Source of the DNA: an uncultured Bacilli bacterium
GTDB lineage: Bacteria > Bacillota_I > Bacilli_A > RF39 > UBA660
Direction: 5' to 3'
Assembly (NCBI GenBank): GCA_944329395.1
Contig: CALVIF010000002.1
Coordinates: forward strand, 1-42,488
DNA length: 42,488 nucleotides
A program made the position numbers and the translations under genes. Positions 1-38,544 of this stretch are shown here, in pieces. Every line of letters begins with the position of its first letter. Positions within the stretch are counted from its first letter, which is position 1. Under the pieces are notes generated by a model. That model was not told the origin of the DNA and did not search any database. It was given only the letters and a program-made list of their open reading frames with translations.

Positions 1-530
1 GACTCATCAATTGCCCCATTTTTATATGCTAATTCAATCATATAATCAACATCTTTTTTTACTGGATCTTCTAATATTCCTGAATTTCTTACACCTTCAA
101 GTGCTTTAACAAAGGATTGTGTTGTTGCAAATTCCATTATAACATTTGAAGTATATACTTGAATTTGTTCAAAGATAAATTCACTATATACTCTTTTACA
201 ACGTAAATATGATAGATATGGAACAAACATAATTGCAATAATAATATAAACTATACATATAATAAGATTATAAAAATAAATGTATGTTACAACTCCTGTA
301 AAAATGGAAAAAATTGCAACTTGAATTGCGTATTGTCTAGCAGTATATTCTTGCCCAAGTTCTTTTGTTTTTTCTCTTACTAGTTTAAAGGAATATGGTG
401 CAAACCTTTCATACATTGTTCCAACCTGTTCCGTAACAAATTTTTGAAGGTCTTGTCCTTGATATTTTCGATATGCTATAACAAGAAATGTAATAATTAA
501 TATAATAACTAACTCTTCAAAACAGTACAT
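1..530 (-). CDS. TadB/GspF-like (type II secretion system F family) polytopic membrane protein. Only the 5' part is present; the gene runs off the left edge.
   Basis: Absent from the ORF track because it is open at the window edge. Manual minus-strand translation from ATG at 530 (SD aagGGAGtgataatATG) gives MYCFEELVIILIITFLVIAYRKYQGQDLQKF...MIELAYKNGAIDE with no stop through base 1. It has an N-terminal TM helix, a cytoplasmic loop of about 55 aa and a second long hydrophobic segment. It starts 17 nt after the ATPase stop, where Tad platform genes normally sit. The family call rests on topology and position only. Confidence 0.4.
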   Translation of the reverse strand, partial: MYCFEELVIILIITFLVIAYRKYQGQDLQKFVTEQVGTMYERFAPYSFKLVREKTKELGQEYTARQYAIQVAIFSIFTGVVTYIYFYNLIICIVYIIIAIMFVPYLSYLRCKRVYSEFIFEQIQVYTSNVIMEFATTQSFVKALEGVRNSGILEDPVKKDVDYMIELAYKNGAIDE

Positions 531-547
531 ATTATCACTCCCTTCTT

Positions 548-2257
548 TTATCCATTAGCAGTTGGTGGTATAAATGGTAAAATTCCATTTTGAATTTCAT
601 TTGGTTGATGTTGATCCATTTGGTAATTATTAGTTTGAACATATTGTGGTGTTTTTTGAATAACTGACATTTCCTGATTAACATTTGGTATAAATTCATT
701 TGGTGTATTTTGTACTTGTTGATTAATTTGATTTAGCGTTTGATTTTGTTGTTCTACTTTTTGTGTTATTATTTGCGATGGTTGTTGATATTCTTTTGAT
801 AAAATTTGATTTTCTTGCTTCATTGCACTTTGATTAATATTTTCATATACAGCTTGATTTGAATCTAATGATGATTCAGAAATTTTTTCATCTTGAGGGA
901 CATTAAAACTGTTTTCTAATGATATTGCAGCTTGAACTTCTTCGCTAATATCTGATAAAGGGATATTAGCTTGATCTTCGATATTTTGAATGTTGTTTGA
1001 AACGTTTTCTTGTAAATTATATGAAGTATTTTCAGATACAAAATTGTTATCTAGAGTATTTTGTGATTCCAATTCTTGATTTTCATTATAAGGAATTTCT
1101 TCATACTCTTGGCTATTTATTTCTTGCTGGTATTCTTCTTCTGGCTGATATTCAGTATTTGAAGAAGAAGCTTCTAAATTATTTTCAAATGGTGTATCGT
1201 CTACCATATTATTTGTTACTGATGTTATATCAATATTTTGATTTTCTAAATATTCAATTAAATACTTACTTGGCTTTCTAAGTATTGGTTCTTTACCAAA
1301 TACTTTCTGATAAATTACTTTACTTTGAGGTTGATTATTTTCATCTACATAAAACTCAACTACTTCATCAACTTCACGATGAAAGCGTCCTAACTCTTTA
1401 CTATAGTATGCCCTAATATGAACTCCTATTTGAATATATCTATATATTGTTGATAAAAATTGATTTACATCTAAATCTGTTTCCATCAAACTATATAAAC
1501 GATAAGGAATTGCAGAGGCTTTATCAGCATGAATTGTTGATAAAATATTGTGCCCTGACGAAATTGAATTTCTAACAGCAGTTACTGCTTCTGCACTTCT
1601 AACTTCTGATAATAGTATCCATTTTGGATTTTGTCTCATACATGTTACTAAAACATCTGTGTAACTTGCAACATTATTTGTTTTCATTGATACAATATCT
1701 CTTTGTGGAAATATTTTATCAAGGTGTAACTCTAATGTATCTTCAATCGTAATAATTTTTTCACTTATTTTGGTATGACTAGCAAGATATTTGACAAATT
1801 CTGTTTTACCTGAACCTGTTTCACCAGCAACAATTATATTACAATGTCCCTCTACACACTTAATTAATATATCATGAATATCTTGTGTAAAATAATCTTC
1901 GTCTAGTAGTTTTTGCTTTTGAAGACGAATTTTTGCTGGTGTTTTACGAATAACCATTGCTATTCCATTTGTTGCAATCGATGGATGCACAAAATTCAAA
2001 CGTAATTCTGCTGATTCTGCGTCAAGAAACGGTTTAGCGTTATTAAATGTTGTTCCCATGACATTTGAACATTGAAAGGCTAATTTTTCAACAAATTCTG
2101 GGGTTGCACCTTTAACTTCTACTCTTAATGAGCCTTGTGTTAAAGAACGAACCCAAATTTGCCCATTATTATCAAAAGATATATCCGTTATATCATCATT
2201 GTCTAATAAGGCTCTTAATGGCCCAAAGTCTAATTTATCAAATATGTTTTCGTTCAC
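548..2257 (-). CDS. VirB11/CpaF(TadA)-family secretion or pilus-assembly ATPase with a roughly 220-aa Q/N/E-rich C-terminal extension
   Basis: Walker A GETGSGKT, Asp-box IEDTLEL, Walker B-like KWILLSEVR and His-box SGHNILSTIHA. The N-domain motif ITDISFDNNGQIWV is also present. GTG start (taaGTGAACGAA). Residues from about 346 to 569 are low complexity. Confidence 0.85.
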   Translation of the reverse strand: MNENIFDKLDFGPLRALLDNDDITDISFDNNGQIWVRSLTQGSLRVEVKGATPEFVEKLAFQCSNVMGTTFNNAKPFLDAESAELRLNFVHPSIATNGIAMVIRKTPAKIRLQKQKLLDEDYFTQDIHDILIKCVEGHCNIIVAGETGSGKTEFVKYLASHTKISEKIITIEDTLELHLDKIFPQRDIVSMKTNNVASYTDVLVTCMRQNPKWILLSEVRSAEAVTAVRNSISSGHNILSTIHADKASAIPYRLYSLMETDLDVNQFLSTIYRYIQIGVHIRAYYSKELGRFHREVDEVVEFYVDENNQPQSKVIYQKVFGKEPILRKPSKYLIEYLENQNIDITSVTNNMVDDTPFENNLEASSSNTEYQPEEEYQQEINSQEYEEIPYNENQELESQNTLDNNFVSENTSYNLQENVSNNIQNIEDQANIPLSDISEEVQAAISLENSFNVPQDEKISESSLDSNQAVYENINQSAMKQENQILSKEYQQPSQIITQKVEQQNQTLNQINQQVQNTPNEFIPNVNQEMSVIQKTPQYVQTNNYQMDQHQPNEIQNGILPFIPPTANG

Positions 2258-2294
2258 TTAACCCACTCTTTTCTTCTTTTCTTTTTTTATAATT

Positions 2295-3101
2295 TTAATT
2301 TTCAGTCCAAATTGTAACTTTATTAATCCAATTTTTTAAGTCTTCACTACTTATAGCAACATTACCAGGATTTTCTTGTAAACTTTCATTAGTTGGAACT
2401 GGAATTAATGTTGTATCATAATTTCTTAAAAATTCTGCTTTTTTTAACAAAATGTAATATTCTTCTGGAACAGCAAATACTATCATTGCAGGCGTTCTTT
2501 TCTCATCAAGATTTGCAAATACAGGTTGTCCACTTGCATCTTTAACTGCTAATACTTTTACATTTTCAACTAATTTGCCAAGCATTATACGATCTGCTTC
2601 TTGGGGACTTGTTATTCCCTCTTCATATTTACTTACGGCTTTTAAATATATATCAATATAATTTTCAGGATATATGGAATTTCCATAAGTTGATGCTGTT
2701 GTAACGCTCATGTTATATAAAACATATCCACTTGGATATTTTAAAATTATATTTGCTGGTAGTTGTTCTTCTTCTACGACAAGTCGTTCATAGAAGAAGC
2801 TTCCAGCTGGTATAATACTATCAGGACTTACATATTTGTCAATTACATCTCCCTGATTTAATAAAACTTGCCCTTTTAACATTGTGGTCGGAATTTGACA
2901 TGTTGTTACAAGATTTTCAGTTATTTGTGTACCACCATCTATTGTTTCTTTAGCACATGGAACTGTTCTTGGATTAATTGCTTGTTTAACACGGAAATTA
3001 TATCCAATTACTAGAACCAATATAGCAGCTACTACGCCAAGTAATGTTACTGTATTTTTATCTTGGAAAATTCTTTTTATTCCGCTACTTTGATTTCCCA
3101 T
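2295..3101 (-). CDS. CpaB/RcpC-like Flp-pilus-assembly protein (N-terminal TM anchor plus beta-rich periplasm-type domains)
   Basis: TM helix VTLLGVVAAILVLVIGY. The later pattern IDIYLKAV...VENVKVLAVKD...AMIVFAVPEEYYILLKKAEF resembles the CpaB C-terminal domain. SD aGGAGAgaaaaaagATG. It lies immediately upstream of the ATPase, as in Tad loci. Confidence 0.6.
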   Translation of the reverse strand: MGNQSSGIKRIFQDKNTVTLLGVVAAILVLVIGYNFRVKQAINPRTVPCAKETIDGGTQITENLVTTCQIPTTMLKGQVLLNQGDVIDKYVSPDSIIPAGSFFYERLVVEEEQLPANIILKYPSGYVLYNMSVTTASTYGNSIYPENYIDIYLKAVSKYEEGITSPQEADRIMLGKLVENVKVLAVKDASGQPVFANLDEKRTPAMIVFAVPEEYYILLKKAEFLRNYDTTLIPVPTNESLQENPGNVAISSEDLKNWINKVTIWTEN

Positions 3102-3124
3102 CTTTTTTCTCTCCTTTTTTTCTT

Positions 3125-3610
3125 TTATTTATTATATCCATAATTATCGTCTGTTACTGGTTTACCAATGTCATTTTCATAATCCCAATTTGCAGAAGTT
3201 ATATATTGATCATCTTTTCTAATACTTTCAACAATTCCATCATAAGTAGTTGTCAGTATTAAGTTTTGGCTATCAAAACTTAATACTGTAGCTGAATCTA
3301 CTTTGACACTTACTTTTGGTGGCACTTCATTTAAATCATAAAAACCTATTCTATAATATCTTGTATTGTCTACACTTGCTGCAAAACGTCTTAAGAAGCT
3401 TTCAACAAATTTATCTTTATCTATTCTAAGTGCATAATTATCACGGTAATATTTTACATCTATTGCATCTTCCATTGCAGCTTCTGCTGTTTCTTTTACT
3501 AAATAATAATCGAGCTCACTTCCAGTAGAATAGTTTGAAATAATATTAATTAATATTAATCCCATTACTGCAAGCATTATAATACCAACTGTTAAAATTC
3601 CCTTATTCAT
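3125..3610 (-). CDS. Small N-terminally anchored extracytoplasmic protein of unknown family (possible pseudopilin-like accessory component)
   Basis: MNKG followed by a 22-aa hydrophobic helix (ILTVGIIMLAVMGLILINIISN), then a soluble domain of about 130 aa. Strong SD (gcAGGAGGtaacaaaaATG). The start overlaps the stop of the upstream giant gene in ATGAATAA. Confidence 0.6.
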   Translation of the reverse strand: MNKGILTVGIIMLAVMGLILINIISNYSTGSELDYYLVKETAEAAMEDAIDVKYYRDNYALRIDKDKFVESFLRRFAASVDNTRYYRIGFYDLNEVPPKVSVKVDSATVLSFDSQNLILTTTYDGIVESIRKDDQYITSANWDYENDIGKPVTDDNYGYNK

Positions 3611-6600
3611 TTTTGTTACCTCCTGCTATGCTATTTAAATAATCTTCTCTACTTTGAAGTAATGCTGATGTGTAACTATTTGTAAACACTTCTGCTTCAT
3701 TGCTTCCCTTTTTCTTTTGATTATTTACACCTAGTGTTCCTAGCGTGATTATACTGTCTGAATTTAATTTATATGAACTTGCGCTACTTGCTCTAAATAG
3801 TGCACTTTCGTAATAAGCAATTCCATTTATTATATTTATTTTTCCAGGGAAAGAACTGAATTTATTGTCACCATCGTGCTCTGAATATTTCCTAATTTTA
3901 TTTAAGTCAGCTGGAGTTAAGTAGAACTCATAGTCTAAATATTGTTCATTTTTATCAGCATCATAAATTTCATTTCCACGGGACTGAATTACTGGATATA
4001 GCGCTCCTGGTGTTACTTCATAGTCCTTGTTTTTTACATTTGATGCACCATCTGTCCAGTTATAACCTTGATTACGTCCTGTTTCATTTGGATTTTCCGT
4101 TGCACTTTCATTATCATTATTTGGGAACATATCTTTTAGTTCAATACTTCTTATTTTATAAGATAATGGTTTTAAAGATTTATTATTATCACCACCATCA
4201 CCTGGTTGGTCAATACTATCATATAGAGAATAGTAGCATTTAATATCAAAATCCCATTTAAAGTAACCAAATTCTCTAGCTGTTGCTAAAATATTATAAT
4301 CTTCTATTGTTGCTTTTTCTTCATCAGAATAAGATGTATTTGAATGTAGGATTCTATGAGTCCACCAATCAGTATTAACATATACGGAATCTAAATTAGT
4401 ACAGAATTTTTCTTTCTTTAAATGCCATGCATTTCCAGTAACTGGTTGATAACTTATTTTTCCTGTTTTATTATTTATCCATGTTCCTGGGAAACTCCAT
4501 TCTGTCATGTAAATTGCATGTCCGTTACTAGTTTCAGGATTATAGCAGCCACTACGATCTAGTATGATTGTTGTGTCAGATAATGGTTTTCCATTTACAT
4601 TTGCGTTTTGTAAGTTTCCACTTTCATTTATTTCGGTTTCATATTTGATTATATTATCTTCATCATCTTTTATTTTATTATTTACTTGGATTGTAAATTC
4701 TGAAGTTTGCGATGTACATGTAGCTGCAGCTTTACACTCTTTTACAGCATTTTCATAGCGTTCAAATTCTTCTTTATAAACAATTGTTGCATCGCCGTAA
4801 TTTAGGAATTCTCTATTAGTAGCAGTTCCTGGATTATTAGGATAACCCTTATAATAACCATTTTGGCGTGCAGCATCGCATCCTGACCAATTACATGATG
4901 CCATACAAACTGATGATCCATAATTATTTCTTAAAAATCCTTTATCAACAACACTTAAACCATCTTGTTGCCATGTAGGATTCCATCTATCGGCTGATTT
5001 TAATCTATTGACTGTATAGTTTGTAATATTTACTGTATAATATCTTCCTGGCTTATCCCAATATCTTGTTCCCATCTTCCATGCAATACTACCATTTTGG
5101 ACATAGTAATAACCACTACCAGCTTCTACTACGGCTAGTTGTAAATCTTCATAACTATATTTTTTACCAGGGCCAATATCATTTTTACTTTCAAGTATAT
5201 CATAATATCTTTCTAATTCTTCTTTAGTAGCAAGTTGCTCGACTTTTTCACTTGACAATTTATTATTATAATTTACAGGTAAAACTGGTTTTTGTCCGTA
5301 AACTTTTTCATAACATGAATTGATACAGCTTTGAGTGTATTTACCTCCGTCACAAGAATTTACACAACTATCAAAATCATTATTAGGACCAGATGCTGAG
5401 CGAAGTGCTCCACCATTACAGCTTCCTACTGGAGTACATACTTTATAATCTTCTGGTTGTGGTTCTTCACCTATAAATTCTGTCATACAGTTTAATTTAC
5501 TCTCAACTTTAACTTTGTATTCAAAACAAAGTCCTGCTTTTGTGGCTACTGGTGGTCCATATGTTACTTTAACTGTTTCTTCACATGTTTTTTTACATTG
5601 AGCATCATTTCCAGCAATTGTAGTATATATATCTAAATTTTTTGTTGTTATTTCTTTTTTATAATATTGCTTTTGAGTATATGATTTATTTGGTTTGTTT
5701 TCAGCATCATAAGAAGGACAAACTAATGGTTGACTACTCAAATCAGTTGAGCCATCCCCTATATTTATAACTTCTCCTTCAGGCGGTCCTTCTAGAGAAC
5801 CAGTTGTGCCTGATGAACCCATTTTTATACTTGCAATAGCATTTCTAATTAGCATTGCAACTTCAGACTCTTTCATGTTTGATTCTACTTGTTTGCTAGT
5901 ACAATAACTTAGTCTATTAGTTGCCTCAGCATAATATTTTTGAAAATCTTCCTTTGATAATCCAGCTTTTTCAAACTGACTTGCAAAACTATCATAATTT
6001 CCATTTCTAAGAGCTGCACAAATACCATTATAATGTACATTATTAATTTTAGCATTGCCTGCATTAGCAGCAACATCTACTTGATGATAATATATATATC
6101 CTAATTTTTCACCTGCTCCCCATTCTGGATTAGACCAATTACTTAATCCCCAAGAACCATCTTCATTATTTCTTACTGGAGTACTTCCTTCAACATAAGA
6201 ACATAAATTATCAGATTCTTTTAATACAAATACTACTTCATAATGTGTTGGTTCATTTTCACGCGTATAATTTATTTTTGCTGATTTTTGACCAAGTTTA
6301 GAGTTTAATGTAATAGTGTTTTTTAACTCTGGATAAGTTTTTCCTTGGTCATTAACTTTTATTTGATAAATATATACATCAAATACACCGCTATCTATAC
6401 TAACTGTATAATATGTATCATTGAAACTTTCTGGTACAAATACATATGGATTATATTTATCATCGGCTGTAACAACATTACATTTTTTAGGATTAAGATT
6501 TTCTATTATTCCGTTACCATTTTCAGCTTTTACAAAAAATTTGGTATATGTTAATGTTAAAATAATAACTATGCATATAGAAAAAGAAATTAATATTTTA

Positions 6601-6614
6601 GATATCTTCTTCAT
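3603..6614 (-). CDS. Large secreted cysteine-rich protein of about 1,003 aa, unknown family
   Basis: The long ORF begins in the track at GTG 6623, but the ATG at 6614 sits 7 nt after GGCGGTG. Sec-type signal MKKISKILISFSICIVIILTLTYTKFFVKA/ENG. About 23 Cys occur in the mature part, many as CxxxC or Cx5C pairs. There is no C-terminal sorting signal. Confidence 0.8.
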   Translation of the reverse strand: MKKISKILISFSICIVIILTLTYTKFFVKAENGNGIIENLNPKKCNVVTADDKYNPYVFVPESFNDTYYTVSIDSGVFDVYIYQIKVNDQGKTYPELKNTITLNSKLGQKSAKINYTRENEPTHYEVVFVLKESDNLCSYVEGSTPVRNNEDGSWGLSNWSNPEWGAGEKLGYIYYHQVDVAANAGNAKINNVHYNGICAALRNGNYDSFASQFEKAGLSKEDFQKYYAEATNRLSYCTSKQVESNMKESEVAMLIRNAIASIKMGSSGTTGSLEGPPEGEVINIGDGSTDLSSQPLVCPSYDAENKPNKSYTQKQYYKKEITTKNLDIYTTIAGNDAQCKKTCEETVKVTYGPPVATKAGLCFEYKVKVESKLNCMTEFIGEEPQPEDYKVCTPVGSCNGGALRSASGPNNDFDSCVNSCDGGKYTQSCINSCYEKVYGQKPVLPVNYNNKLSSEKVEQLATKEELERYYDILESKNDIGPGKKYSYEDLQLAVVEAGSGYYYVQNGSIAWKMGTRYWDKPGRYYTVNITNYTVNRLKSADRWNPTWQQDGLSVVDKGFLRNNYGSSVCMASCNWSGCDAARQNGYYKGYPNNPGTATNREFLNYGDATIVYKEEFERYENAVKECKAAATCTSQTSEFTIQVNNKIKDDEDNIIKYETEINESGNLQNANVNGKPLSDTTIILDRSGCYNPETSNGHAIYMTEWSFPGTWINNKTGKISYQPVTGNAWHLKKEKFCTNLDSVYVNTDWWTHRILHSNTSYSDEEKATIEDYNILATAREFGYFKWDFDIKCYYSLYDSIDQPGDGGDNNKSLKPLSYKIRSIELKDMFPNNDNESATENPNETGRNQGYNWTDGASNVKNKDYEVTPGALYPVIQSRGNEIYDADKNEQYLDYEFYLTPADLNKIRKYSEHDGDNKFSSFPGKINIINGIAYYESALFRASSASSYKLNSDSIITLGTLGVNNQKKKGSNEAEVFTNSYTSALLQSREDYLNSIAGGNKNE

Positions 6615-7419
6615 TATTTTCACCGCCCTTCAAAACATCTTCTATTTCTTTATAATTATCTTTTATTTTTACTTCAGATAATTTTGTCTTTTCGCTTTCT
6701 GCTAACAATTTACCTTCAATTTTAAATCTATATGACATTGTTCCAGGTACAAACCTTGTACATGTAACTAAAGATATTATTTTATCGTTTTCATCTACAG
6801 AGACGTTATAATCAAAAAAACTATCTTCTATCGATTTATTAATATACTCTTTTAATTCTTGTTTTGATAAATAACCAGAATTAGGCAAATTATAATCAGA
6901 GATTAAAGTTACTGAAAAAATTTTAAATAAATAATTTTTATTATCTTTAGTATATTGAATATATTGATTATTTTTTGCAAAGTCATAATATATAAATGAC
7001 ATTAATTGTTCAAATCGAGTGTGGTCTTTGTTTGTAATTAGTGGATTACTAGATACATTTTTAAGATTATGACCTAAAATTACTGTTCTATCTATTAGTT
7101 GATTTGGATTTTCTAAAACCCATGTAAAATCACTTGTTACATTTGTTTCTATGAATTTATTTGTCGGATCATAAACAACAGGATAATCAATGTTTGTTCC
7201 TTGAACTCTTATCCAACCATTTACATTAATTTCTTTATTTTTTTGTTGATAATTTTCAATATTCTTTTGTCGATTTTCAATTTTAAATGTATTTTCCTTT
7301 AATATTACTTTCCCAATTATTGATATTACTAATAAGATACATATTAAAATTGATGTTACGCTTATTATAGGAATTATTTTCCACTTTAATTTATCAACTT
7401 TTTTACTACTTTTTTTCAT
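6598..7419 (-). CDS. srtB: Class B-like sortase (cysteine transpeptidase)
   Basis: N-terminal TM anchor. The motif NGWIRVQGTNIDYPVV matches the SrtB-type N-terminal motif. Catalytic His in VILGHN, catalytic Cys in ISLVTCT and Arg in SYRFKIEGKL. SD taGGTGGaattATG. Confidence 0.75.
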   Translation of the reverse strand: MKKSSKKVDKLKWKIIPIISVTSILICILLVISIIGKVILKENTFKIENRQKNIENYQQKNKEINVNGWIRVQGTNIDYPVVYDPTNKFIETNVTSDFTWVLENPNQLIDRTVILGHNLKNVSSNPLITNKDHTRFEQLMSFIYYDFAKNNQYIQYTKDNKNYLFKIFSVTLISDYNLPNSGYLSKQELKEYINKSIEDSFFDYNVSVDENDKIISLVTCTRFVPGTMSYRFKIEGKLLAESEKTKLSEVKIKDNYKEIEDVLKGGENNEEDI

Positions 7420-7427
7420 AATTCCAC

Positions 7428-9236
7428 CTACTTAGAAATTTTATATGGGTCTTTTTCTGTCCCTGATCCTGAGACAATCTTTACTCTTTTATCCAGATAA
7501 CCAACTGGTCTTATATAGCTTTCAATATTATCTGATAATTGTTCAAACATTACCACTCCAATATTAGAAATAAGATATTTACGATATTGTTCTTTAGAAG
7601 AGTTAATTAACCAATATCCAATATTTGTTTCATCTGATTTTAATGATGCGCTAAACATTTCATACATGTTAGGAGCGGAAAATTTAACTTTGTATTTTTT
7701 GGTTGAATCTTCTTTTTTATACTTTGCAATTGTTTTATAAATTGGTACGCTTATTTCTTTAGTAACAAAATATTTTTCATCAACACTGTCACCTGTTTTT
7801 TGATTAATGGTATAACCAATGTTTCCTTTTTGCGTAGGATTATATATTTTACTAGTGTCTGTTGTTTCGTATTTAATAGTATCATTTCCACCTATTAGTG
7901 TAATTGGAATTTCAGATATGACTTTTGTATCACCATCATTGCTTATATCAACAATTCTCCATAAATATCCAGAATATGTAATATACTCTCCAGAATATCG
8001 TGTATTTAAATATTCATCTGCCTTAGCTTTATTAATATCATTTAAAGAATATGGATTTTCTTTTGTACCGTCCCCTGATATTACTAAGGAATCTCCTTTT
8101 ATTGTTAATACAGGACGTACTCCAAGATTATAATCATTATCAAAATACATATATTGTGAAGATCCAGCTATTCCTGTAAAAGCAAATTTAGTAGCCCAAG
8201 CTTCTCCATTTTCATTTACGTTAGAAGTCCAACTAATAGTTTGTGGAAACAAATAACTTTCCCCATTAACATTTCTGCTTTGATTTAGTTCTTTATTTGA
8301 AATTATATATGCATATCTTGAACTAGTCTGTTTGATGCAGTTTGTTTCTGTATTCACATTCTCTGGGGTTAGTGTTCCTGTACAATATTTATTTTTTACA
8401 AGATATTTTTTTGATGATGGAGCAAGATGATCATAAAAATATTCTAGCCACTCATCTAGTCCATCATAATCAACATTAGCGATATCATTATTAGCTATTA
8501 CTTTTATATTATTACCATCCAAACCAATGATTCTAAATAACATCCCCGAAAAATAGAGATAATTATTAACATTATTTCCAAGATATATTCCATTTTCTGT
8601 TTCTTGTTTTACAGTGGCATTAATTTTTTGAACTACATTGACTTTTCTTGTTATGGTCGTTTTGTTTTTTAAACTATCTAGTACAGTATAAGTTACTTCA
8701 TATGTTCCATTTACGTTTGTGTTTACTTTTGATGAATCAATAATTACTTCTTTAGGATCTATTTTTCCATCTTCGTTGTCTGTTACTTTTTCAACTCCTA
8801 GTTCCTTATATTCTTCTCCACGATTAATTGTAATTTCGTTTTCACCTTTTAATTTAATAACCGGTCCTGTATGATCAACATTTGATTTAAAAAAGCCACA
8901 TTGTAAATATGTTATATATTTATACTCATCTCTAGATGTCTGGGTTACTTTTACCCAACTTTCAGTTATTGAGCATGGTTTTTTTGTATATGGAACAAAA
9001 AGATCTTCTTTAATGTAAGCGTCATTATAAAGCGTTTTTAAAGTTACGGTACTAACTCTTTTTCCAGTTGGTAATTTGTCAGCATTTAATTCATAATATC
9101 TTTTAGCAGCTTCTATAAATATTTTTTCATTATTTTTAAATTTAAGGAATGGACTAATTATCAAAAACCAAATAAAAGCACATGGTATTGCTAGTGTTAC
9201 TGCAATTTTAAAATACTTTGCAAATTTATTTTTCAT
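7428..9236 (-). CDS. N-terminally anchored surface protein with an Ig-like (DUF5011-type) domain and two tandem modules of about 190 aa
   Basis: TM IAVTLAIPCAFIWFLIISPFL. Residues 123-203 (GPVIKLKGENEITINRGEEY...DGKID...NGTYEVTYTVLDSLKNKTTITRKVNV) look like a bacterial Ig/DUF5011 domain. Both modules start with a hydrophobic W/F-R-I-[IV] strand and end with RPV...V-[IV]-SG-[DS]-GT-[KE]-E-[ND]-PY. Confidence 0.8.
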   Translation of the reverse strand: MKNKFAKYFKIAVTLAIPCAFIWFLIISPFLKFKNNEKIFIEAAKRYYELNADKLPTGKRVSTVTLKTLYNDAYIKEDLFVPYTKKPCSITESWVKVTQTSRDEYKYITYLQCGFFKSNVDHTGPVIKLKGENEITINRGEEYKELGVEKVTDNEDGKIDPKEVIIDSSKVNTNVNGTYEVTYTVLDSLKNKTTITRKVNVVQKINATVKQETENGIYLGNNVNNYLYFSGMLFRIIGLDGNNIKVIANNDIANVDYDGLDEWLEYFYDHLAPSSKKYLVKNKYCTGTLTPENVNTETNCIKQTSSRYAYIISNKELNQSRNVNGESYLFPQTISWTSNVNENGEAWATKFAFTGIAGSSQYMYFDNDYNLGVRPVLTIKGDSLVISGDGTKENPYSLNDINKAKADEYLNTRYSGEYITYSGYLWRIVDISNDGDTKVISEIPITLIGGNDTIKYETTDTSKIYNPTQKGNIGYTINQKTGDSVDEKYFVTKEISVPIYKTIAKYKKEDSTKKYKVKFSAPNMYEMFSASLKSDETNIGYWLINSSKEQYRKYLISNIGVVMFEQLSDNIESYIRPVGYLDKRVKIVSGSGTEKDPYKISK

Positions 9237-9247
9237 ATTTATCTCCC

Positions 9248-10804
9248 TTACTTTATTTTGTATTTATATCTATTGTTTCGGACAGTAATTATTAAATCAA
9301 TGCTTTTTGAATCAATTATTTCTACAGGAACTAAAATGTATGCATATTTACCATAATATTGTTCAGTTGGCAAGGCATTTTTTATCGTGATATCATGTTC
9401 TTTATCGTTACTATCTATGTAATTTATTGTACCATATTTAGTTAAAAAGTCAATCATATCTTTGCCATCAAAGTCATTTGAAGCAAAGCTTATTTCTAAA
9501 TTTTTTTTACTTTGATCAACTGTAAAACTTTGTTCATTAAAACTACAATTTGTAGCATTACAACTTTCTTTACTATAAAAAACTGTTTCAGCAAGTTCAT
9601 AATTATCAAATATTACTTCTTTTTCTTTTTTGCCAATATTAAAGCTTAAACTATCACCTATTTTTAATTGTTTATGATCTTCTATTTTTGTTAAATCTTT
9701 AAGATTTAATTTTATTTTTCTTAAGTGATTTGAGTTGTTTGTAAATTCTTGATAATATAAAACAAATCTTTTTATGTTTAATTTTGTATTTACTTTAAAA
9801 ATAAGAATAGTATTATATTTTTCGTCTTTATTAATAGTTTTTTCTTCATATGCACTTCCTAAATCTTTAAATTGTGTCGCATATGTTTTGGCTGTTGGGG
9901 TATAATTGTTTGTTCCGTTCATTAAATGAAATCTTGCGAAATTTATTTTTCTTTTTTCTACCTTATTAGTAATTGTGACATCTAATATAACAAAGCTGCT
10001 TTCTTTTGAAATTAAGTCACCTTTGTAATCTAAGTTACTGTAATAACTATCATTAATTTTTATTTCATAACCACTTGTTTTAATTATATCTCCTTGTTTA
10101 TATGTTTTATTTGTTATAAATATAAATTCATATGTTTTAAAAGTAGAAATTAGTAATAAAATAATTGCAATTACAGTCACAGCTTTTTTATGTTCCTGTA
10201 GGTAATAACCACTATTTCTTTTAAAGCGTCTAATAAATCTCTTAAAACTATTTTTATCGATATTAATGTTTATTTCCATTTCGGCACGATCTGCTTCTGT
10301 TAATTCTAGGTATTCCTCGTCCGATTTAAAATCAAATTTTCGTAAATCAAGGCCTAGTATTCTAATAAATAATACAATAAATGTTACATATTGTGTTCCG
10401 ATTAGTATTAAAAGAATATCGCGCATTGCTCTTGGTCCTGTTGTATCTGTACTACCAATGTATGTTGCAAAAAAATTGCTAATTGTAATAAACATTATGA
10501 ATAGAACTGAATAACTAATGATTGGAACTATATATATTTTCCATGGTTTTTTCTTTTTGTATAAAAGAATTAGTACAGTAATCATTGAAGAAATTATTAG
10601 CAGTAAAAAAAGATAGGAAAAAAAGTTTATATAACCTGATATAGGTTCATTTAAATAATCATACGTTCCTAAATCTACAAATTCTTTCATAAAGGAATAA
10701 AGTTGTGTGGTTTTATAAACTATATATGCACATAGTATAAAAAGAAAGATATGAATTTTTTTAAAATTTTTAATTAAAAAGGCATATGGTTTTCTAATAA
10801 TCAT
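9248..10804 (-). CDS. Polytopic membrane protein (about 5 TM) with a C-terminal extracytoplasmic beta-rich (DUF4352-like) region; first gene of the operon
   Basis: Hydrophobic segments near residues 17-31, 60-82, 90-112, 128-150 and 207-222. The C-terminal half is beta-strand-like (SFVILDVTITNKVEKRKINFARFHLMNG...). SD tAGGAGttgatactATG. Confidence 0.75.
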   Translation of the reverse strand: MIIRKPYAFLIKNFKKIHIFLFILCAYIVYKTTQLYSFMKEFVDLGTYDYLNEPISGYINFFSYLFLLLIISSMITVLILLYKKKKPWKIYIVPIISYSVLFIMFITISNFFATYIGSTDTTGPRAMRDILLILIGTQYVTFIVLFIRILGLDLRKFDFKSDEEYLELTEADRAEMEININIDKNSFKRFIRRFKRNSGYYLQEHKKAVTVIAIILLLISTFKTYEFIFITNKTYKQGDIIKTSGYEIKINDSYYSNLDYKGDLISKESSFVILDVTITNKVEKRKINFARFHLMNGTNNYTPTAKTYATQFKDLGSAYEEKTINKDEKYNTILIFKVNTKLNIKRFVLYYQEFTNNSNHLRKIKLNLKDLTKIEDHKQLKIGDSLSFNIGKKEKEVIFDNYELAETVFYSKESCNATNCSFNEQSFTVDQSKKNLEISFASNDFDGKDMIDFLTKYGTINYIDSNDKEHDITIKNALPTEQYYGKYAYILVPVEIIDSKSIDLIITVRNNRYKYKIK

Positions 10805-10850
10805 AGTATCAACTCCTATTATTCTATCTTTAATTAGTATAACTTATTTT

Positions 10851-10891
10851 AAGTAAAAAAAAAAGATTGTTTAAACAATAAACAATCTTTT
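10851..10891 (-). terminator. Rho-independent terminator downstream of greA
   Basis: Perfect 13-bp stem (10861-10873 with 10879-10891) and a 5-nt loop, followed on the minus strand by a run of about 10 U. The stem is AT-rich and therefore weak. Confidence 0.6.
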
Positions 10892-10912
10892 TTATTTTAT
10901 TATTTTATTTTA

Positions 10913-11383
10913 TTATTTTATTTCTATTACTTCAATCTCATAAGAGCCATTAGGACTTTCAACAGTTACAATGTCTCCTACTTTATGATTAAATAATGCT
11001 TGAGCTATTGGGCTTTCATTTGAAATCTTGCTTTCAAATGGATTAGCTTCTTGTGAACCAACAATTTTATATTCATCTTCTTCATCATCATCAACATATT
11101 TGATGCATACTGTATTACCAATACCAACTGTATCTTTTGAAACTTCAGATATTATGGAAACATTTTCCAACATTTTTTCTATTTGTTTTATACGAGCTTC
11201 TATCTGAGCTTGCTCATTACGAGCTGCATCATATTCTGCATTTTCAGATAAATCACCTAGTGATCTCGCCTCTTTTATTGCTTGAATATTTTCTGGACGC
11301 TTTACATTTATTAAGTTATCTAATTCGTTTTTTAGTTCTTCCAATCCCTCTTGAGTTAAATATACGGTATTTTTATTACCCAT
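10913..11383 (-). CDS. greA: Transcription elongation factor GreA
   Basis: LTQEGLEELKNELDNL coiled-coil N-domain and C-domain SNESPIAQALFNHKVGDIVTV. The track start at 11392 is a GTG inside the SD (GAGGTGataaacATG), so the ATG at 11383 is preferred. Confidence 0.95.
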   Translation of the reverse strand: MGNKNTVYLTQEGLEELKNELDNLINVKRPENIQAIKEARSLGDLSENAEYDAARNEQAQIEARIKQIEKMLENVSIISEVSKDTVGIGNTVCIKYVDDDEEDEYKIVGSQEANPFESKISNESPIAQALFNHKVGDIVTVESPNGSYEIEVIEIK

Positions 11384-11446
11384 GTTTATCACCTCGTAAA
11401 TGTTTTGTATATTATTATTTATTGAATACTAAATTCAACTTGCCAA

Positions 11447-11475
11447 AGTATATCATATTTTTTTTACTTTAGCAA
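11447..11475 (-). promoter_or_regulatory. Putative sigma-A promoter for greA
   Basis: On the minus strand: TTGCTA, 17 nt, TATACT, with an extended TG (TGATATACT). Confidence 0.35.
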
Positions 11476-11479
11476 TATC

Positions 11480-12106
11480 TTATTTTCTTTTTATATAGGT
11501 TATTCCTTTTTCTTTTAAAGTTTCTTCTCTTTCCATTTCTTTAATTATTTTTGTTAAATCAGACTTTTTATATTGACCAATATTTAACATTCCTAAAGGA
11601 TTTTGGCTTTCTTCAAATAATCTCTTCATTGAATTTGATGAGCTGTCTAGTGCATGAGTATAACTTTCTATATTGGCAAACTTATCTATATTTTGATCTC
11701 TATATTTTACTTTTGCTAGTTCTGATATTCTGGAATGTTCTCTTATAAGCCAAATAATTGATGCTCCAAATCCTAGAATTGTTGCTGAAGCGGTTAAAAA
11801 TTCGTTAGCTTGAATACTTTGCATTGATTCTGATCCTATCAAAGCAATACTACCGGTGCTAGTTGCTAGAACACTTCCTGTAGCAATAAGAGTTCTAATT
11901 TTATATATGGCTTCTCTTTTAATAGCATCTTTCATTTGTTCTTCCATTATTGATTCAAGTTTTTGAAGATTTGCATCAGTATTTTCAACATCAGTATGTT
12001 TATGGCCATCTCCAAATGTTACTATTAATGTCTCATCATCTTTTTTTTGAGTTACATCTAAAATATATGTTGTTTTATCTTCTTTTATTCTGTTATATCT
12101 TTGCAT
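11480..12106 (-). CDS. Hypothetical membrane protein (two central TM helices)
   Basis: SD AGGAGGtaataaaATG and its own promoter. Hydrophobic segments TLIATGSVLATSTGSIALIG and LTASATILGFGASIIWLI. No recognisable family motifs. Confidence 0.65.
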   Translation of the reverse strand: MQRYNRIKEDKTTYILDVTQKKDDETLIVTFGDGHKHTDVENTDANLQKLESIMEEQMKDAIKREAIYKIRTLIATGSVLATSTGSIALIGSESMQSIQANEFLTASATILGFGASIIWLIREHSRISELAKVKYRDQNIDKFANIESYTHALDSSSNSMKRLFEESQNPLGMLNIGQYKKSDLTKIIKEMEREETLKEKGITYIKRK

Positions 12107-12142
12107 TTTATTACCTCCTAAGGCTCGTTTTTAAACAGGCAT

Positions 12143-12171
12143 ATTGTATCATAAAAAGCTTGAGGTTTCAA
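12143..12171 (-). promoter_or_regulatory. Near-consensus sigma-A promoter for the 11480..12106 gene
   Basis: On the minus strand: TTGAAA (12171-12166), a 17-nt spacer, then TACAAT (12148-12143) preceded by TGA (extended -10). The -35 element lies within the upstream terminator hairpin. Confidence 0.5.
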
Positions 12172-13292: not shown

Positions 13293-13314
13293 ATTATTCC
13301 TCCATAAGTTATTA

Positions 13315-15478: not shown

Positions 15479-15500
15479 TTATTTTAATATTTTTTCTTAA

Positions 15501-38542: not shown

Positions 38543-38544
38543 AA

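What the first reader, a model, noticed from the sequence alone, without database searches (positions are those of the whole stretch)
1..10804. Tad/CpaF-type motor operon combined with a class B sortase and giant non-pilin exoproteins: candidate undescribed surface-assembly system
Eight co-directional minus-strand genes run from 10804 to 1 and continue beyond the left edge. Gaps are 37 nt or less, or the genes overlap: an ATGAATAA overlap at 3603-3610 and a 17-26 nt overlap at 6598-6623. The cluster begins just after the greA terminator, so it looks like one operon. Three products look like Tad/Flp machinery: a CpaF/VirB11 ATPase, a CpaB-like protein and a TadB/GspF-like platform protein. The other five genes are not Tad components. 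They encode a 518-aa polytopic protein, a 602-aa Ig-domain surface protein, a class B sortase, a roughly 1,003-aa Cys-rich secreted protein and a 161-aa anchored protein. Within the window I see no Flp-type pilin (G/xxxxEY), no prepilin peptidase, no TadZ/ParA-like gene and no protein with a C-terminal LPXTG or NPQTN sorting signal. The intergenic gaps are too small to hide a pilin ORF. As far as I know, a sortase inside a Tad-type ATPase operon is not a described architecture. The operon also lacks the near-consensus -35/-10 promoters I could read in front of most other units here, which suggests activator dependence or read-through from greA. My inference is a Tad-like motor repurposed to export or assemble large adhesin-like proteins, with sortase-mediated processing.
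Basis: partly seen in the sequence, partly recalled or inferred. Interest (0 to 1): 0.8.

Follow-up and report, generated by a model that had tools for sequence, protein, structure and literature searches.

The report
Tad-like fibre module joined to T4SS
The eight genes are real and belong together, but they are only the front third of a 26-gene chromosomal cluster in an uncultured small-genome gut bacterium, in which a little-known Tad-like surface-fibre machine with a large variable surface protein and a sortase is joined to a Gram-positive-type type IV secretion system.

Summary
Eight tightly packed minus-strand genes follow the greA terminator: a T2SSE ATPase, a weak CpaB-like protein, a class B sortase, DUF5411, a 1,006-aa orphan secreted protein, an Ig-like protein and a polytopic protein.

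Identical contigs extend the cluster leftwards by 18 more genes. These include:
- a second TadB/C-like membrane protein;
- a 52-aa and a 151-aa pilin-like protein;
- two VirB2-like proteins;
- VirB6-like and VirB3-like proteins, a split VirB4 and a cell-wall hydrolase;
- a CD1115-family VirD4.

There is no relaxase, integrase or prepilin peptidase.

The order is conserved next to greA in all 78 related species genomes examined (uncultured Bacilli named "Mycoplasma sp. CAG:877"). The machine proteins are about 80% identical across them and the surface proteins 30-50%.

The ATPase and its two membrane partners are collinear with genes 37-39 of plasmid pLS20. The DUF5411-to-VirB2-like block, with a large upstream protein sharing the 1,006-aa protein's C-terminal domain, also occurs without an adjacent T4SS in other gut Firmicutes.

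Best reading: a Firmicutes Tad-like fibre or adhesin module coupled to a domesticated monoderm T4SS. This is a new variant of a known kind. The function and the sortase substrate remain unknown.

The parts
9248..10804 (-). First gene of the cluster. A 518-aa polytopic protein with four predicted N-terminal TM segments and a C-terminal extracytoplasmic part with a weak DUF4352 hit. It evolves fast.
   Evidence: ORF. DUF4352 E = 0.005, below cut-off. TM segments. Orthologs in 74 loci, median identity 46%. A p518-like gene sits inside the ATPase module in L131 and L132.
7428..9236 (-). 602-aa N-terminally anchored surface protein with an Ig-like domain. Orthologs show faint DUF6273 hits.
   Evidence: PF16403 E = 7e-17. 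One N-terminal TM segment. Faint DUF6273 hit in the L011 ortholog. The 440-aa last gene of the cluster also carries DUF6273. Median identity 50%.
6598..7419 (-). 273-aa membrane-anchored class B sortase. Its stop overlaps the start of the next gene.
   Evidence: PF04203 29.4 bits, above the 26.6 cut-off. TIGR03064 srtB 58.8 bits, below the 153.75 cut-off. Best solved relatives are C. difficile and S. aureus SrtB. H117, C220 and R222 are invariant in 42 homologs, while the canonical Arg position (232) varies.
3603..6623 (-). 1,006-aa secreted, Cys-rich, multi-domain orphan protein. The N-terminal part is variable. The conserved C-terminal domain is shared with the large proteins encoded upstream of DUF5411 in other Firmicutes.
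   Evidence: No Pfam or NCBIfam hit. Only 230 homologs, all unnamed, 59% to 30% identity. The AlphaFold2 model has pLDDT 81.8, with no Foldseek match at E<=1e-3 in PDB or BFVD. Many invariant Cys. The family HMM matches the C-terminal ~120 aa of 29 of 29 large upstream proteins, E 6e-11 to 3e-6.
3125..3610 (-). 161-aa DUF5411 protein. It has an N-terminal hydrophobic helix that continues into a long helix, followed by a small beta-sheet, which is a pilin-like topology. An NExPPKVS motif is invariant.
   Evidence: PF17424 E = 7e-46. 543 family representatives, with the domain always at residue 1 and often long C-terminal extensions. AlphaFold2 pLDDT 77, helix 3-48 plus three strands. Foldseek gave no significant match. 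Invariant residues.
2295..3101 (-). 268-aa N-terminally anchored CpaB/RcpC-like (SAF-type) protein.
   Evidence: TIGR03177 E = 3e-5 and PF16976 E = 2e-4, both below cut-off. The L013 ortholog has weak SAF and RcpC hits. It holds the same position as the SAF-domain gene of an actinobacterial Tad locus.
548..2257 (-). 569-aa secretion ATPase of the CpaF/FlaI/VirB11 group. The catalytic part covers about residues 1-340, followed by a Q/N/E-rich tail of about 230 aa.
   Evidence: PF00437 93.5 bits. All NCBIfam equivalogs are below cut-off: VirB11 113 bits, TadA-type 106, TrbB 94, FlaI 91. Against solved structures: CpaF 72.5, FlaI 71.5, VirB11 54.6 bits. 37% identical to pLS20 gene 37. HMM E = 1e-53.
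1..530 (-). First 176 codons of a 301-aa polytopic protein, a TadB-like candidate platform subunit. The gene runs off the left edge of the window.
   Evidence: Frame found. Full length seen in L001. No T2SSF hit. Its TM pattern (1-19, 68-107, 240-282) mirrors that of an annotated T2SSF protein. Weak profile match to pLS20 gene 38, E = 5e-4.
10855..10893 (-). Intrinsic-terminator-like hairpin plus U-run after greA. It marks the upstream boundary of the cluster.
   Evidence: Sequence. Fold.

Best explanation
Window 1-10804 is the 5' third of a co-directional cluster of about 27 kb and 26 genes. The cluster sits at a fixed chromosomal site, between greA and a rhodanese/DedA/RmuC block, in an uncultured small-genome gut lineage of Bacilli. 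Public names for this lineage include 'Mycoplasma sp. CAG:877', 'Bacilli bacterium' and Candidatus Faecimonas.

The cluster joins two machines.

(1) A Firmicutes-specific Tad-like assembly module. Its members are:
- the large secreted 1,006-aa protein;
- DUF5411;
- a CpaB-like protein;
- a CpaF/VirB11-group ATPase;
- two TadB/TadC-like polytopic proteins;
- a 52-aa and a 151-aa N-terminally hydrophobic protein;
- a cytoplasmic 340-aa protein;
- two VirB2-like two-TM proteins.

(2) A monoderm type IV secretion system of the pLS20/CD1115 type. Its members are VirB6-like and VirB3-like proteins, a split VirB4, a SpoIID-domain wall hydrolase and a VirD4 coupling protein.

In this lineage, a polytopic protein, an Ig-like protein and a class B sortase are added at the front.

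Inferred mechanism: the hexameric ATPase drives the membrane platform to push a short fibre or pseudopilus, built from the small hydrophobic subunits, through the wall. The variable 1,006-aa protein is held on this fibre by its conserved C-terminal domain and acts as the contact adhesin. The sortase and the two other surface proteins modify or anchor this surface layer. Cell contact then lets the T4SS move a substrate.

Shown: composition, gene order, homologies and conservation. Inferred: that a fibre is made, that the large protein is an adhesin, and what the T4SS transfers.
For: Extension of the cluster:
- Contigs that encode the identical ATPase give the leftward extension and the gene list.
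- Relatives give the distal end: VirB4, a 742-751-aa SpoIID-domain protein, a 258-aa protein, VirD4, a 395-440-aa protein, then rhodanese, DedA and RmuC.
- VirD4 scores 303 bits against NF045973 (CD1115 family), above the 250-bit cut-off.
- VirB4 matches plasmid VirB4 proteins at 30% identity over 99% of its length.
- The 182-aa protein matches the N-terminal part of the mycoplasma ICE VirB4 model, E = 4e-14.

Link to known conjugation operons:
- pLS20 and a C. perfringens plasmid have the same order: a ~125-aa N-terminally anchored protein, the ATPase, two ~260-aa membrane proteins, a 120-aa protein, then VirD4, VirB6, DUF5592 and VirB4.
- Family profiles match in register: ATPase 1e-53 and 1e-46; p269 1e-5 and 3e-3; p301 5e-4; VirB6 1e-5; VirB3 2e-6.

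Tad-like character:
- The gene order and protein sizes equal those of an annotated actinobacterial Tad locus: SAF, CpaF, T2SSF, T2SSF, a 62-aa Flp, TadE.
- The TM topology matches that of annotated T2SSF proteins.
- CpaF is the best solved relative of the ATPase.

Conservation:
- The same order is kept in 78 species-level genomes, usually beside greA.
- Median identity to the window's proteins: ATPase 84%, VirB4 83%, p301 78%. For comparison, greA is 87%. The sortase is 41% and p1006 31%.

The module is an entity of its own:
- 22 of 30 long metagenome loci from other Firmicutes carry the DUF5411-to-p120 block with scores of 340-660 bits.
- In several of these it is followed by UvrA or by an opposite-strand gene, not by a T4SS.
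- All 29 large upstream proteins share the p1006 C-terminal domain.
- p120 and p156 are paralogs (hhalign 99%), with a weak T4SS_pilin hit.

Link between sortase, p1006 and DUF5411:
- The three-gene cassette is duplicated in L017, L019, L021 and L070.
- A sortase independently sits next to a DUF5411 fusion protein in the L142-type loci.
Against: - No T2SSF, Flp, TadE or TadZ/ParA profile hit for the candidate platform, pilin, pseudopilin or 340-aa proteins.
- The 52-aa protein has no G/XXXXEY motif. Its conserved N-terminus is MK[AE]ATGELN[LM]TV.
- No prepilin peptidase lies in the cluster.
- The pilin-like fold of DUF5411 was not confirmed by structure search.
- No cluster protein carries a conserved sortase sorting signal, so the sortase's role is unexplained. 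In C. sordellii pCS1-1, knocking out a plasmid srtB barely changed conjugation (PMC5770547).
- No relaxase was found, so the substrate of the T4SS is unknown.
- The profile matches to pLS20 genes 36, 38 and 40 are weak.
- Nothing here shows expression or a surface structure.
Confidence: 0.6

Rival explanations
1. Plain conjugation machinery. The ATPase is simply the VirB11 of a Gram-positive T4SS, and p301, p269, the small proteins and DUF5411 are lineage-specific inner-membrane or channel parts of that T4SS. No separate Tad-like machine and no fibre is made.
For: The nearest characterised relatives are pLS20-type conjugation genes 37-39, embedded in a single conjugation operon (PMC8557374). 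NCBIfam VirB11 is the best-scoring equivalog at 113 bits. The T4SS is always adjacent in the window's lineage.
Against: The same DUF5411-CpaB-ATPase-p301-p269-pil52-p151-p340-p120 block occurs with no T4SS gene next to it. In L138, L144 and L166 it ends at UvrA, and in L174 at an opposite-strand gene. It has a CpaB-like gene and the gene order of Tad loci. CpaF and FlaI score higher than VirB11 among solved structures.
Confidence: 0.15
2. A Tad-like motor has been repurposed as a dedicated exporter or assembler of the large exoproteins, with sortase processing, and no pilus subunits are involved.
For: A large secreted protein with a conserved C-terminal domain always sits just upstream of DUF5411 and the ATPase block. 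The sortase, p518-like and p602-like genes recur with the module. No canonical Flp pilin or prepilin peptidase is present.
Against: The large proteins have ordinary N-terminal signal or anchor sequences, so Sec export suffices. Conserved 52-aa and 151-aa N-terminally hydrophobic proteins and two VirB2-like proteins are invariably part of the module. The sortase is absent from most stand-alone modules. No sorting signal was found.
Confidence: 0.12
3. An integrated conjugative element (ICE), active or decaying, that happens to lie beside greA.
For: A complete mating-pair-formation gene set with a coupling protein. Homologs are carried mostly on conjugative plasmids. Mycoplasma ICE family models give weak hits.
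Against: The insertion context and gene order are the same in 78 species-level genomes. No integrase, transposase or relaxase lies between greA and rhodanese. G+C content is the same as the flanks. The core proteins are about as conserved as greA.
Confidence: 0.05
4. A DNA-uptake or DNA-exchange (competence-like) organelle. The Tad-like pseudopilus captures DNA and the T4SS channel with VirD4 translocates it, in a lineage with many auxotrophies.
For: There is precedent for T4SSs used in DNA uptake (H. pylori ComB, reviewed in PMC12857230). The system is relaxase-less, chromosomal and lineage-wide. The ATPase also resembles ComGA at 80 bits.
Against: ComB-type uptake systems lack VirD4 (PMC12857230), which is present here. 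No ComEA- or ComEC-like gene is in the cluster. The large, fast-evolving surface proteins point to cell or host recognition rather than DNA binding. Nothing was tested directly.
Confidence: 0.08

Closest known systems
Conjugation operon of the pLS20 family of Bacillus plasmids (genes 36-52), and the related operon on a C. perfringens plasmid (NZ_CP073071.1)
   Same: Collinear order: a small N-terminally anchored protein, a CpaF/VirB11-type ATPase, two ~260-300-aa membrane proteins, small hydrophobic proteins, then a CD1115-family VirD4, a p028-type VirB6, a VirB3-like protein and a split VirB4. Adhesin genes sit at the head of the operon (PMC8557374).
   Different: Here the locus is chromosomal, fixed in place and lineage-wide. 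It has no relaxase or replication and partition genes. VirD4 lies at the distal end rather than before VirB6. It adds a CpaB-like gene, a clear DUF5411 protein, the conserved 52-aa protein, a 340-aa protein, a class B sortase and the 1,006-aa protein. Sequence identity is low: 37% for the ATPase and profile-level only for the rest.
Tad/Flp (type IVc) pilus loci, for example the actinobacterial locus on Streptomyces plasmid NZ_CP108601.1
   Same: The order is SAF/CpaB-like, ATPase, two ~300-aa polytopic proteins, a ~55-aa hydrophobic protein, then a ~150-aa N-terminally hydrophobic protein. The TM topology of the two membrane proteins matches. The ATPase's best solved relative is CpaF.
   Different: No T2SSF, Flp, TadE or TadZ profile matches, no G/XXXXEY motif and no prepilin peptidase. 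DUF5411, a large secreted protein and VirB2-like proteins are added.
The uncharacterised 'secretion-related operon' (CpaF + PilC/GspF + DUF5411 + internalin-like protein) predicted by gene-context language modelling in Roseburia, Ruminococcus and Eubacterium (Miller et al. 2022, PMC9523054)
   Same: It has the same hallmark, DUF5411 next to a CpaF-type ATPase and platform-like proteins in gut Firmicutes. It is most likely the same module as the stand-alone blocks I recovered.
   Different: That report lists eight to nine genes, no T4SS, no sortase and no experiments. Whether the loci I recovered are from those genera was not tested.
Chromosomal, relaxase-less MPF-FATA-type T4SS of Patescibacteria (PMC12102498)
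   Same: A monoderm-type T4SS with VirB2-like proteins, chromosomal, conserved across a reduced-genome uncultured lineage, and lacking a relaxase. In that case it was interpreted as co-opted from conjugation.
   Different: A different phylum. No Tad-like ATPase module, sortase or DUF5411 is reported there. This is an analogy of situation, and no homology beyond the T4SS core was tested.
Sortase-plus-adhesin pairs at the head of Gram-positive conjugation loci (pCP13 Pcp locus PcpD/CnaB, PMC8941779; E. bolteae pCbo51; sortases and giant surface proteins on 'Hodor' megaplasmids, PMC12934698)
   Same: A class B-type sortase and large surface proteins are encoded with T4SS genes.
   Different: Those adhesins carry recognisable sorting signals. 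Here none was found in any cluster protein. The canonical catalytic Arg position of the sortase is also not conserved.

Membership tests
Tad/Flp (type IVc) pilus system | TadA/CpaF-family hexameric secretion ATPase (T2SSE domain) | tested here: met
   PF00437 93.5 bits against a 24.9 cut-off. CpaF is the top solved relative at 72.5 bits. No NCBIfam equivalog cut-off is reached, and VirB11 and TrbB models score similarly.
Tad/Flp (type IVc) pilus system | TadB and TadC platform proteins with a T2SSF (GspF) domain | tested here: inconclusive
   No T2SSF hit for p301, p269 or their orthologs (and the precomputed Pfam columns). hhalign against two annotated T2SSF proteins was not significant. Size, position and TM topology match.
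Tad/Flp (type IVc) pilus system | Flp pilin with a G/XXXXEY processing motif | tested here: not met
   The 52-aa protein starts MK[AE]ATGELN[LM]TVIT, with Glu at +1 after the Gly and no EY. No Pfam hit.
Tad/Flp (type IVc) pilus system | Dedicated prepilin peptidase (TadV/CpaA, peptidase A24) | tested here: not met
   None among the 26 cluster genes, the window, or the stand-alone modules. The rest of the genome could not be searched.
Tad/Flp (type IVc) pilus system | CpaB/RcpC (SAF-type) protein | tested here: inconclusive
   TIGR03177 23 bits (cut-off 71) and PF16976 21.5 bits (cut-off 28.8). Weak SAF and RcpC hits in the L013 ortholog.
Tad/Flp (type IVc) pilus system | TadZ/CpaE ParA-like localisation ATPase and TadE/TadF pseudopilins | tested here: not met
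   The 340-aa protein has no Pfam, NCBIfam or PDB-profile relative. The 151-aa protein has no TadE hit. Only position and N-terminal hydrophobicity agree.
Monoderm T4SS of the pLS20/CD1115 type (MPF-FATA-like) | VirB4 ATPase, here split into a TraC-like N-terminal protein and an ATPase | tested here: met
   Pfam P-loop_TraG, DUF87 and AAA_10. 30% identity over 99% of its length to plasmid VirB4 proteins. The 182-aa protein matches NF045975, E = 4e-14. The split is the same in pLS20.
Monoderm T4SS of the pLS20/CD1115 type (MPF-FATA-like) | VirD4 coupling protein of the CD1115 family | tested here: met
   NF045973 303 bits against a 250 cut-off, and PF02534 E = 5e-55, in the ortholog of relative L008. 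Present in closer relatives L095 and L096. The window strain's own copy lies beyond the DNA I could fetch.
Monoderm T4SS of the pLS20/CD1115 type (MPF-FATA-like) | VirB6-like polytopic channel protein and VirB3-like protein | tested here: inconclusive
   Below-cut-off hits to the MMCAP2_0566, Mbov_0396 and pLS20_p028 models. Family profile against pLS20 p028, E = 1e-5. VirB3-like against C. perfringens DUF5592, E = 2e-6.
Monoderm T4SS of the pLS20/CD1115 type (MPF-FATA-like) | Relaxase and oriT, needed to call it a conjugation system | tested here: not met
   No relaxase domain in any gene between greA and RmuC. A relaxase elsewhere in the genome, or an unrecognised one, is not excluded.
Class B sortase | Sortase fold with catalytic His and Cys (TLXTC-type) and Arg | tested here: inconclusive
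   PF04203 is above cut-off, while TIGR03064 is far below (58.8 against 153.75). H117 and C220 are invariant. The Arg at the canonical position varies, but R222 (TCTR) is invariant.
Class B sortase | A substrate with a sorting motif, a hydrophobic segment and a charged tail | tested here: not met
   No conserved LPXTG-, NPQTN-, SPXTG- or NVQTG-type motif, and no C-terminal sorting signal, in any cluster protein family. Substrates encoded elsewhere could not be searched for.
Integrative conjugative element | Integrase or transposase, flanking repeats, and variable presence among relatives | tested here: not met
   No recombinase in or beside the cluster. The flanks are identical in 78 species genomes. 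G+C content is uniform. Flanking repeats were not searched for.
DUF5411-CpaF operon of gut Firmicutes (PMC9523054) | DUF5411 protein next to a CpaF-type ATPase and platform-like membrane proteins | tested here: met
   The same block is found in 22 of 30 long loci from other Firmicutes.

The most novel reading that the evidence does not exclude
The cluster is a core organelle of this reduced-genome gut lineage, not a mobile element. It would be a conjugation-derived T4SS domesticated together with a Tad-like machine that builds a true surface fibre in a monoderm. The fibre would be tipped by a rapidly diversifying 1,000-aa adhesin, which the dedicated sortase couples covalently to the DUF5411 base, for example at the invariant Lys of the PPK motif. 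The lineage would use it for obligate cell-to-cell or host contact and for acquiring macromolecules, much like the T4SS that episymbiotic Patescibacteria depend on. It would also mean that pLS20-type Gram-positive conjugation systems do have a pilus-like mating device, contrary to the current textbook statement.
Probability: 0.2. Interest if true: 0.85.

Novelty: new variant of a known kind. Interest (0 to 1): 0.62.

Why it matters
A recent review states that Gram-positive T4SSs lack VirB11-type ATPases and pili (PMC12857230). This locus, its plasmid relatives and the stand-alone modules show something different. A CpaF/VirB11-type ATPase with Tad-like partners, pilin-like small proteins and VirB2-like proteins is widespread in gut Firmicutes, and it is repeatedly coupled to T4SSs.

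In the CAG:877-like lineage the coupled system is chromosomal, relaxase-less and about as conserved as greA. This suggests a domesticated contact or transfer organelle in bacteria that have never been cultured and whose way of life is unknown.

The finding also gives names and testable roles to several orphan families: DUF5411, the 1,006-aa family, p301/p269 and p340. pLS20 in B. subtilis is a tractable model for knocking out the homologous genes 36-41.

Tried and rejected
- Sequence-level proof that p301 and p269 are T2SSF proteins failed with Pfam, NCBIfam and hhalign against annotated T2SSF proteins. Only topology and synteny remain.
- The TadZ idea for the 340-aa protein found no support. 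A profile search of the PDB gave only a chance RlmN hit.
- The structure search for the DUF5411 model returned no pilin, so 'pilin-like' rests on topology alone.
- The structure searches for the 1,006-aa model, against PDB and viral structures, gave only generic FnIII-type domain matches.
- DUF5411 proteins have no match on any PLSDB plasmid.
- The first DUF5411 alignment was too diverse for the locus scan.
- Co-divergence of cluster proteins with greA was too noisy to use as evidence for vertical descent. The synteny of the flanks carries that argument instead.
- The consensus promoter scan is uninformative at this G+C content.
- Motif scans found no sortase signal.
- A weak match suggests that the separate ~250-aa secreted protein of other lineages corresponds to the N-terminus of the 1,006-aa protein. 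The best E-value is 6.5e-4, which I consider too weak to claim.
- I believe the lineage corresponds to GTDB order RF39. That is from memory and was not tested. Literature searches on RF39 found no description of this system.

Full report
**1. Observation**

The window has about 27% G+C, and every gene in 1-13000 lies on the minus strand. The last one (1-530) is the first 176 codons of a gene that runs off the left edge.

greA (10913-11392) ends in an AT-rich 15-bp hairpin followed by ten U. This fits the start of a new transcription unit. The consensus promoter scan is uninformative in such AT-rich DNA, with 88 sites against 83 expected.

Profile searches confirm:
- a T2SSE ATPase (93.5 bits);
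- a sortase whose solved relatives are all class B;
- DUF5411 in the 161-aa protein (E = 7e-46);
- a bacterial surface Ig-like domain in the 602-aa protein.

CpaB/RcpC for the 268-aa protein and DUF4352 for the 518-aa protein are sub-threshold hits. The 1,006-aa protein and the truncated membrane protein have no hit at all.

The rest of the window is ordinary chromosome: an HD-domain protein, U32 peptidases, YceG/MltG, RuvX, DnaE, BipA and arginine deiminase.

**2. What lies beyond the edge**

The exact ATPase sequence occurs on eight metagenome contigs. Two of these, of 62-65 kb, extend the locus. Downstream of the ATPase come, on the same strand and with gaps of at most 74 nt:
- the full 301-aa membrane protein;
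- a 269-aa membrane protein;
- a 52-aa protein (MKAATGELNLTVITIIAIAAV...);
- a 151-aa N-terminally hydrophobic protein;
- a cytoplasmic 340-aa protein;
- 120-aa and 156-aa two-TM proteins;
- a 673-aa polytopic protein;
- a 103-aa membrane protein;
- a 182-aa TraC-like protein;
- a 596-aa VirB4.

The 120-aa protein has a weak T4SS_pilin hit, and the 120-aa and 156-aa proteins are paralogs at 99% hhalign probability.

In close relatives the cluster ends with a SpoIID-domain wall hydrolase, a 258-aa protein, a VirD4 coupling protein and a 395-440-aa DUF6273 protein. The VirD4 scores 303 bits against the CD1115-family model, whose cut-off is 250. After that come rhodanese, DedA, RmuC and a tRNA synthetase.

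There is no integrase, relaxase or prepilin peptidase anywhere between greA and RmuC.

**3. Conservation**

VirB4 homologs at about 91% identity occur on hundreds of gut-metagenome contigs of up to 1.4 Mb. They carry names such as 'Mycoplasma sp. CAG:877' or 'Bacilli bacterium'.

A scan of one genome per GTDB species with a DUF5411 alignment found 358 genomes. The best 78 loci are all uncultured Bacilli, Tenericutes or Mycoplasmatota MAGs from human, goat, chicken and rabbit guts, and they include a closed 1.52-Mb chromosome.

In essentially every one of these loci the order is the same: greA, 518, 602, sortase, 1006, DUF5411, CpaB, ATPase, 301, 269, 52, 151, 340, 120, 156, VirB6, VirB3, TraC-N, VirB4.

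Median identity to the window's proteins:

| Protein | Median identity |
|---|---|
| greA | 87% |
| ATPase | 84% |
| VirB4 | 83% |
| p301 | 78% |
| 52-aa protein | 77% |
| DUF5411 | 65% |
| p602 | 50% |
| p518 | 46% |
| sortase | 41% |
| VirB6 | 39% |
| 1,006-aa protein | 31% |

The machine is therefore under strong constraint, and the exposed proteins diversify fast.

Some genomes have a second sortase-1006-DUF5411 cassette (L017, L019, L021, L070). Some have a serpin gene between greA and the first gene of the cluster.

A fixed site, housekeeping flanks, uniform composition and the absence of recombinases all argue against a mobile element.

**4. Relation to known systems**

The ATPase's best plasmid relatives are the 'tadA'/VirB11 genes of pLS20-family Bacillus plasmids (37% identity). 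Next come CpaF/VirB11-family genes of C. perfringens, pXO1-type and pXO2-type plasmids.

pLS20 and the C. perfringens plasmid share this order: a ~125-aa N-terminally anchored protein, the ATPase, two ~260-aa membrane proteins, a 120-aa protein, small proteins, then a CD1115 VirD4, a p028 VirB6, DUF5592 and a split VirB4.

Profiles built from the 78 loci hit these proteins in register:
- ATPase: 1e-53 and 1e-46;
- p269: 1e-5 and 3e-3;
- p301: 5e-4;
- VirB6: 1e-5;
- VirB3-like: 2e-6;
- VirB4: 3e-30 and 2e-20;
- DUF5411 (about 0.013 in both plasmids) and p151 (0.03 and 0.002): suggestive only.

The pLS20 paper records gene 37 as a putative VirB11 and genes 36 and 38-41 as unknown (PMC8557374). 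A 2025 review still states that Gram-positive T4SSs lack VirB11 and pili (PMC12857230).

An annotated actinobacterial Tad locus has the order SAF, hypothetical, CpaF, T2SSF, T2SSF, a 62-aa Flp, TadE, TadE, TadG. This is the same order, with the same sizes, as CpaB-like, ATPase, 301, 269, 52 and 151 here. The TM segments of 301 and 269 fall at the same positions as in the two T2SSF proteins.

No T2SSF, Flp, TadE or TadZ profile match could be obtained, and the 52-aa protein lacks G/XXXXEY. Membership in the Tad family therefore fails several defining tests. What remains is a resemblance in architecture and in the ATPase.

**5. The module exists on its own**

The only paper that mentions DUF5411 predicted, from gene context alone, an uncharacterised secretion-related operon in Roseburia, Ruminococcus and Eubacterium. 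It comprised CpaF, PilC/GspF, DUF5411 and an internalin-like protein (PMC9523054).

I scanned metagenomes with an alignment of the more distant DUF5411 group. I then searched the 30 loci of 14 kb or more with the family profiles.

- 22 of the 30 carry DUF5411, CpaB (one or two copies), ATPase, p301, p269, two 52-aa-type proteins (MKEATGELNMTV...), one or two p151-type proteins, p340 and two p120-type proteins. Scores are 340-660 bits for the larger proteins.
- These blocks are preceded by a ~250-aa secreted protein and a 970-1,680-aa secreted protein.
- In L138, L144 and L166 the block is followed by UvrA, and in L174 by an opposite-strand gene. No T4SS is adjacent in these.
- In L119 a VirB6-like gene follows the block. 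In L140 a CHAP hydrolase, a lipoprotein and a VirD4 precede it.

The module is therefore an autonomous unit that is repeatedly, but not always, linked to a T4SS.

The 1,006-aa family profile matches the C-terminal ~120 residues of all 29 large upstream proteins, with E from 6e-11 to 3e-6. The 'giant exoprotein' is thus a conserved component with a constant C-terminal domain and a variable remainder.

p518-like and p602-like genes also turn up inside or after the module in other lineages (L131, L132, L128). In the L142-type loci, a DUF5411 protein fused to a C39-like domain is followed directly by a sortase and a VWA-domain protein, with no ATPase within 10 kb.

**6. The orphan proteins**

- *The 1,006-aa protein.* An alignment of 85 homologs shows many invariant Cys and gives a confident AlphaFold2 model (pLDDT 81.8, pTM 0.64). 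Nothing in the PDB or BFVD matches at E<=1e-3 apart from an FnIII-like sandwich.
- *DUF5411.* The model (pLDDT 77) is a 46-residue N-terminal helix, two short helices and a three-stranded sheet. This is pilin-like in outline, but Foldseek did not confirm it. The domain always starts at residue 1 and often carries long C-terminal extensions. An NExPPKVS motif is invariant.
- *The sortase.* It keeps His117 and Cys220. The canonical Arg position varies, while Arg222 is invariant. No cluster protein family has a conserved sorting motif or a C-terminal sorting signal.

**7. Mechanism**

Shown: the composition, order, homologies, conservation pattern and modularity of the cluster.

Inferred: the ATPase and the two TadB/C-like proteins form a platform that assembles the small hydrophobic proteins (52-aa, 151-aa, DUF5411, possibly the VirB2-like pair) into a short wall-spanning fibre, with the CpaB-like protein as a periplasm-side scaffold. 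The large protein docks through its conserved C-terminal domain and provides variable binding specificity. In this lineage the sortase, p518 and p602 elaborate that surface layer. The adjacent T4SS then uses the contact to move DNA or protein.

An analogy from established knowledge is the thin type IV pilus of IncI plasmid R64, which is needed for mating in liquid. pLS20 also mates efficiently in liquid (PMC11730352).

Because the cluster is relaxase-less, fixed and lineage-wide, I read the T4SS as domesticated. This parallels the chromosomal MPF-FATA T4SS of Patescibacteria (PMC12102498).

Each is weighed in its own section of this report.

**8. Verdict**

The finding is real and more extensive than described. 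The idea that a Tad-type motor, large surface proteins and a sortase form one conserved system is borne out.

The parts have precedents:
- pLS20 genes 36-41;
- the context-predicted DUF5411 operon;
- sortases in Gram-positive conjugation loci (PMC8941779);
- sortases with giant surface proteins on gut megaplasmids (PMC12934698).

I found no description of this fused, chromosomal, lineage-wide version, nor of the module's full gene set. I rate it a new variant of a known kind, of moderate to high interest.

Noticed in passing
window 19898-22354 and 24908-27349 (minus strand): Two hybrid histidine kinase/response-regulator genes (818 and 813 aa). Their cytoplasmic ~580 residues are essentially identical, while the N-terminal membrane sensor parts are only about 30% alike. 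Three ORFs with no family hit (327, 200 and 217 aa) lie between them. This looks like a recent duplication or gene conversion that spared the sensor domains.
   Followed up: partly
window 548-1240 (C-terminal third of the ATPase gene): The ATPase carries a Q/N/E-rich low-complexity tail of about 230 aa. Total protein length varies among related species (493-576 aa). The stand-alone versions in other Firmicutes are shorter, with ORFs of about 310-430 aa. Such a tail is unusual for CpaF/VirB11 ATPases.
   Followed up: partly
L017, L019, L021, L070 (relatives; upstream of the p518 gene): A second copy of the three-gene cassette sortase, ~1,000-aa protein, DUF5411 is inserted between greA and the first gene of the cluster. 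This suggests the three genes act as a unit and may provide alternative surface variants.
   Followed up: partly
L011, L016, L025, L028 (between greA and the p518 ortholog): A 528-aa serpin-domain protein with an N-terminal membrane anchor is inserted at the head of the cluster in some species but not in the window.
   Followed up: no
L001 12635-13444 compared with L002 12635-13444: In one assembly the 269-aa TadC-like gene is split into 205-aa and 54-aa ORFs by a stop codon. It is intact in a near-identical contig. This is either an assembly or sequencing error, or a strain-level knockout.
   Followed up: no
L001 13519-13677 and orthologs; L128, L138, L174 and others: The N-terminus MK[AE]ATGELN[LM]TV of the 52-90-aa protein is nearly invariant from the CAG:877-like lineage to distant Firmicutes. 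The C-terminal part varies in length and is Cys-rich in the others. This looks like a processing or assembly signal that differs from the Flp and type IV pilin consensus.
   Followed up: partly
L142, L149, L153, L159, L160, L164 (metagenome loci), about 9998-15666: A different arrangement: a 243-aa and a ~1,600-aa secreted protein, a DUF5411 protein fused to a C39-like peptidase domain (393 aa), a sortase, a VWA-domain protein and a 905-aa protein. No secretion ATPase lies within 10 kb.
   Followed up: partly
window 6598-7419 (sortase), residues 217-232: The Arg at the canonical class B sortase catalytic position (R232 here) is not conserved among 42 homologs. An Arg two residues after the catalytic Cys (the TCTR motif) is invariant instead. 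This may be a shifted catalytic triad.
   Followed up: partly
window 37100-42449: A DcuC-type carrier, an arginine deiminase and neighbouring genes suggest an arginine-fermentation cluster, as is common in Mollicutes-like bacteria.
   Followed up: no
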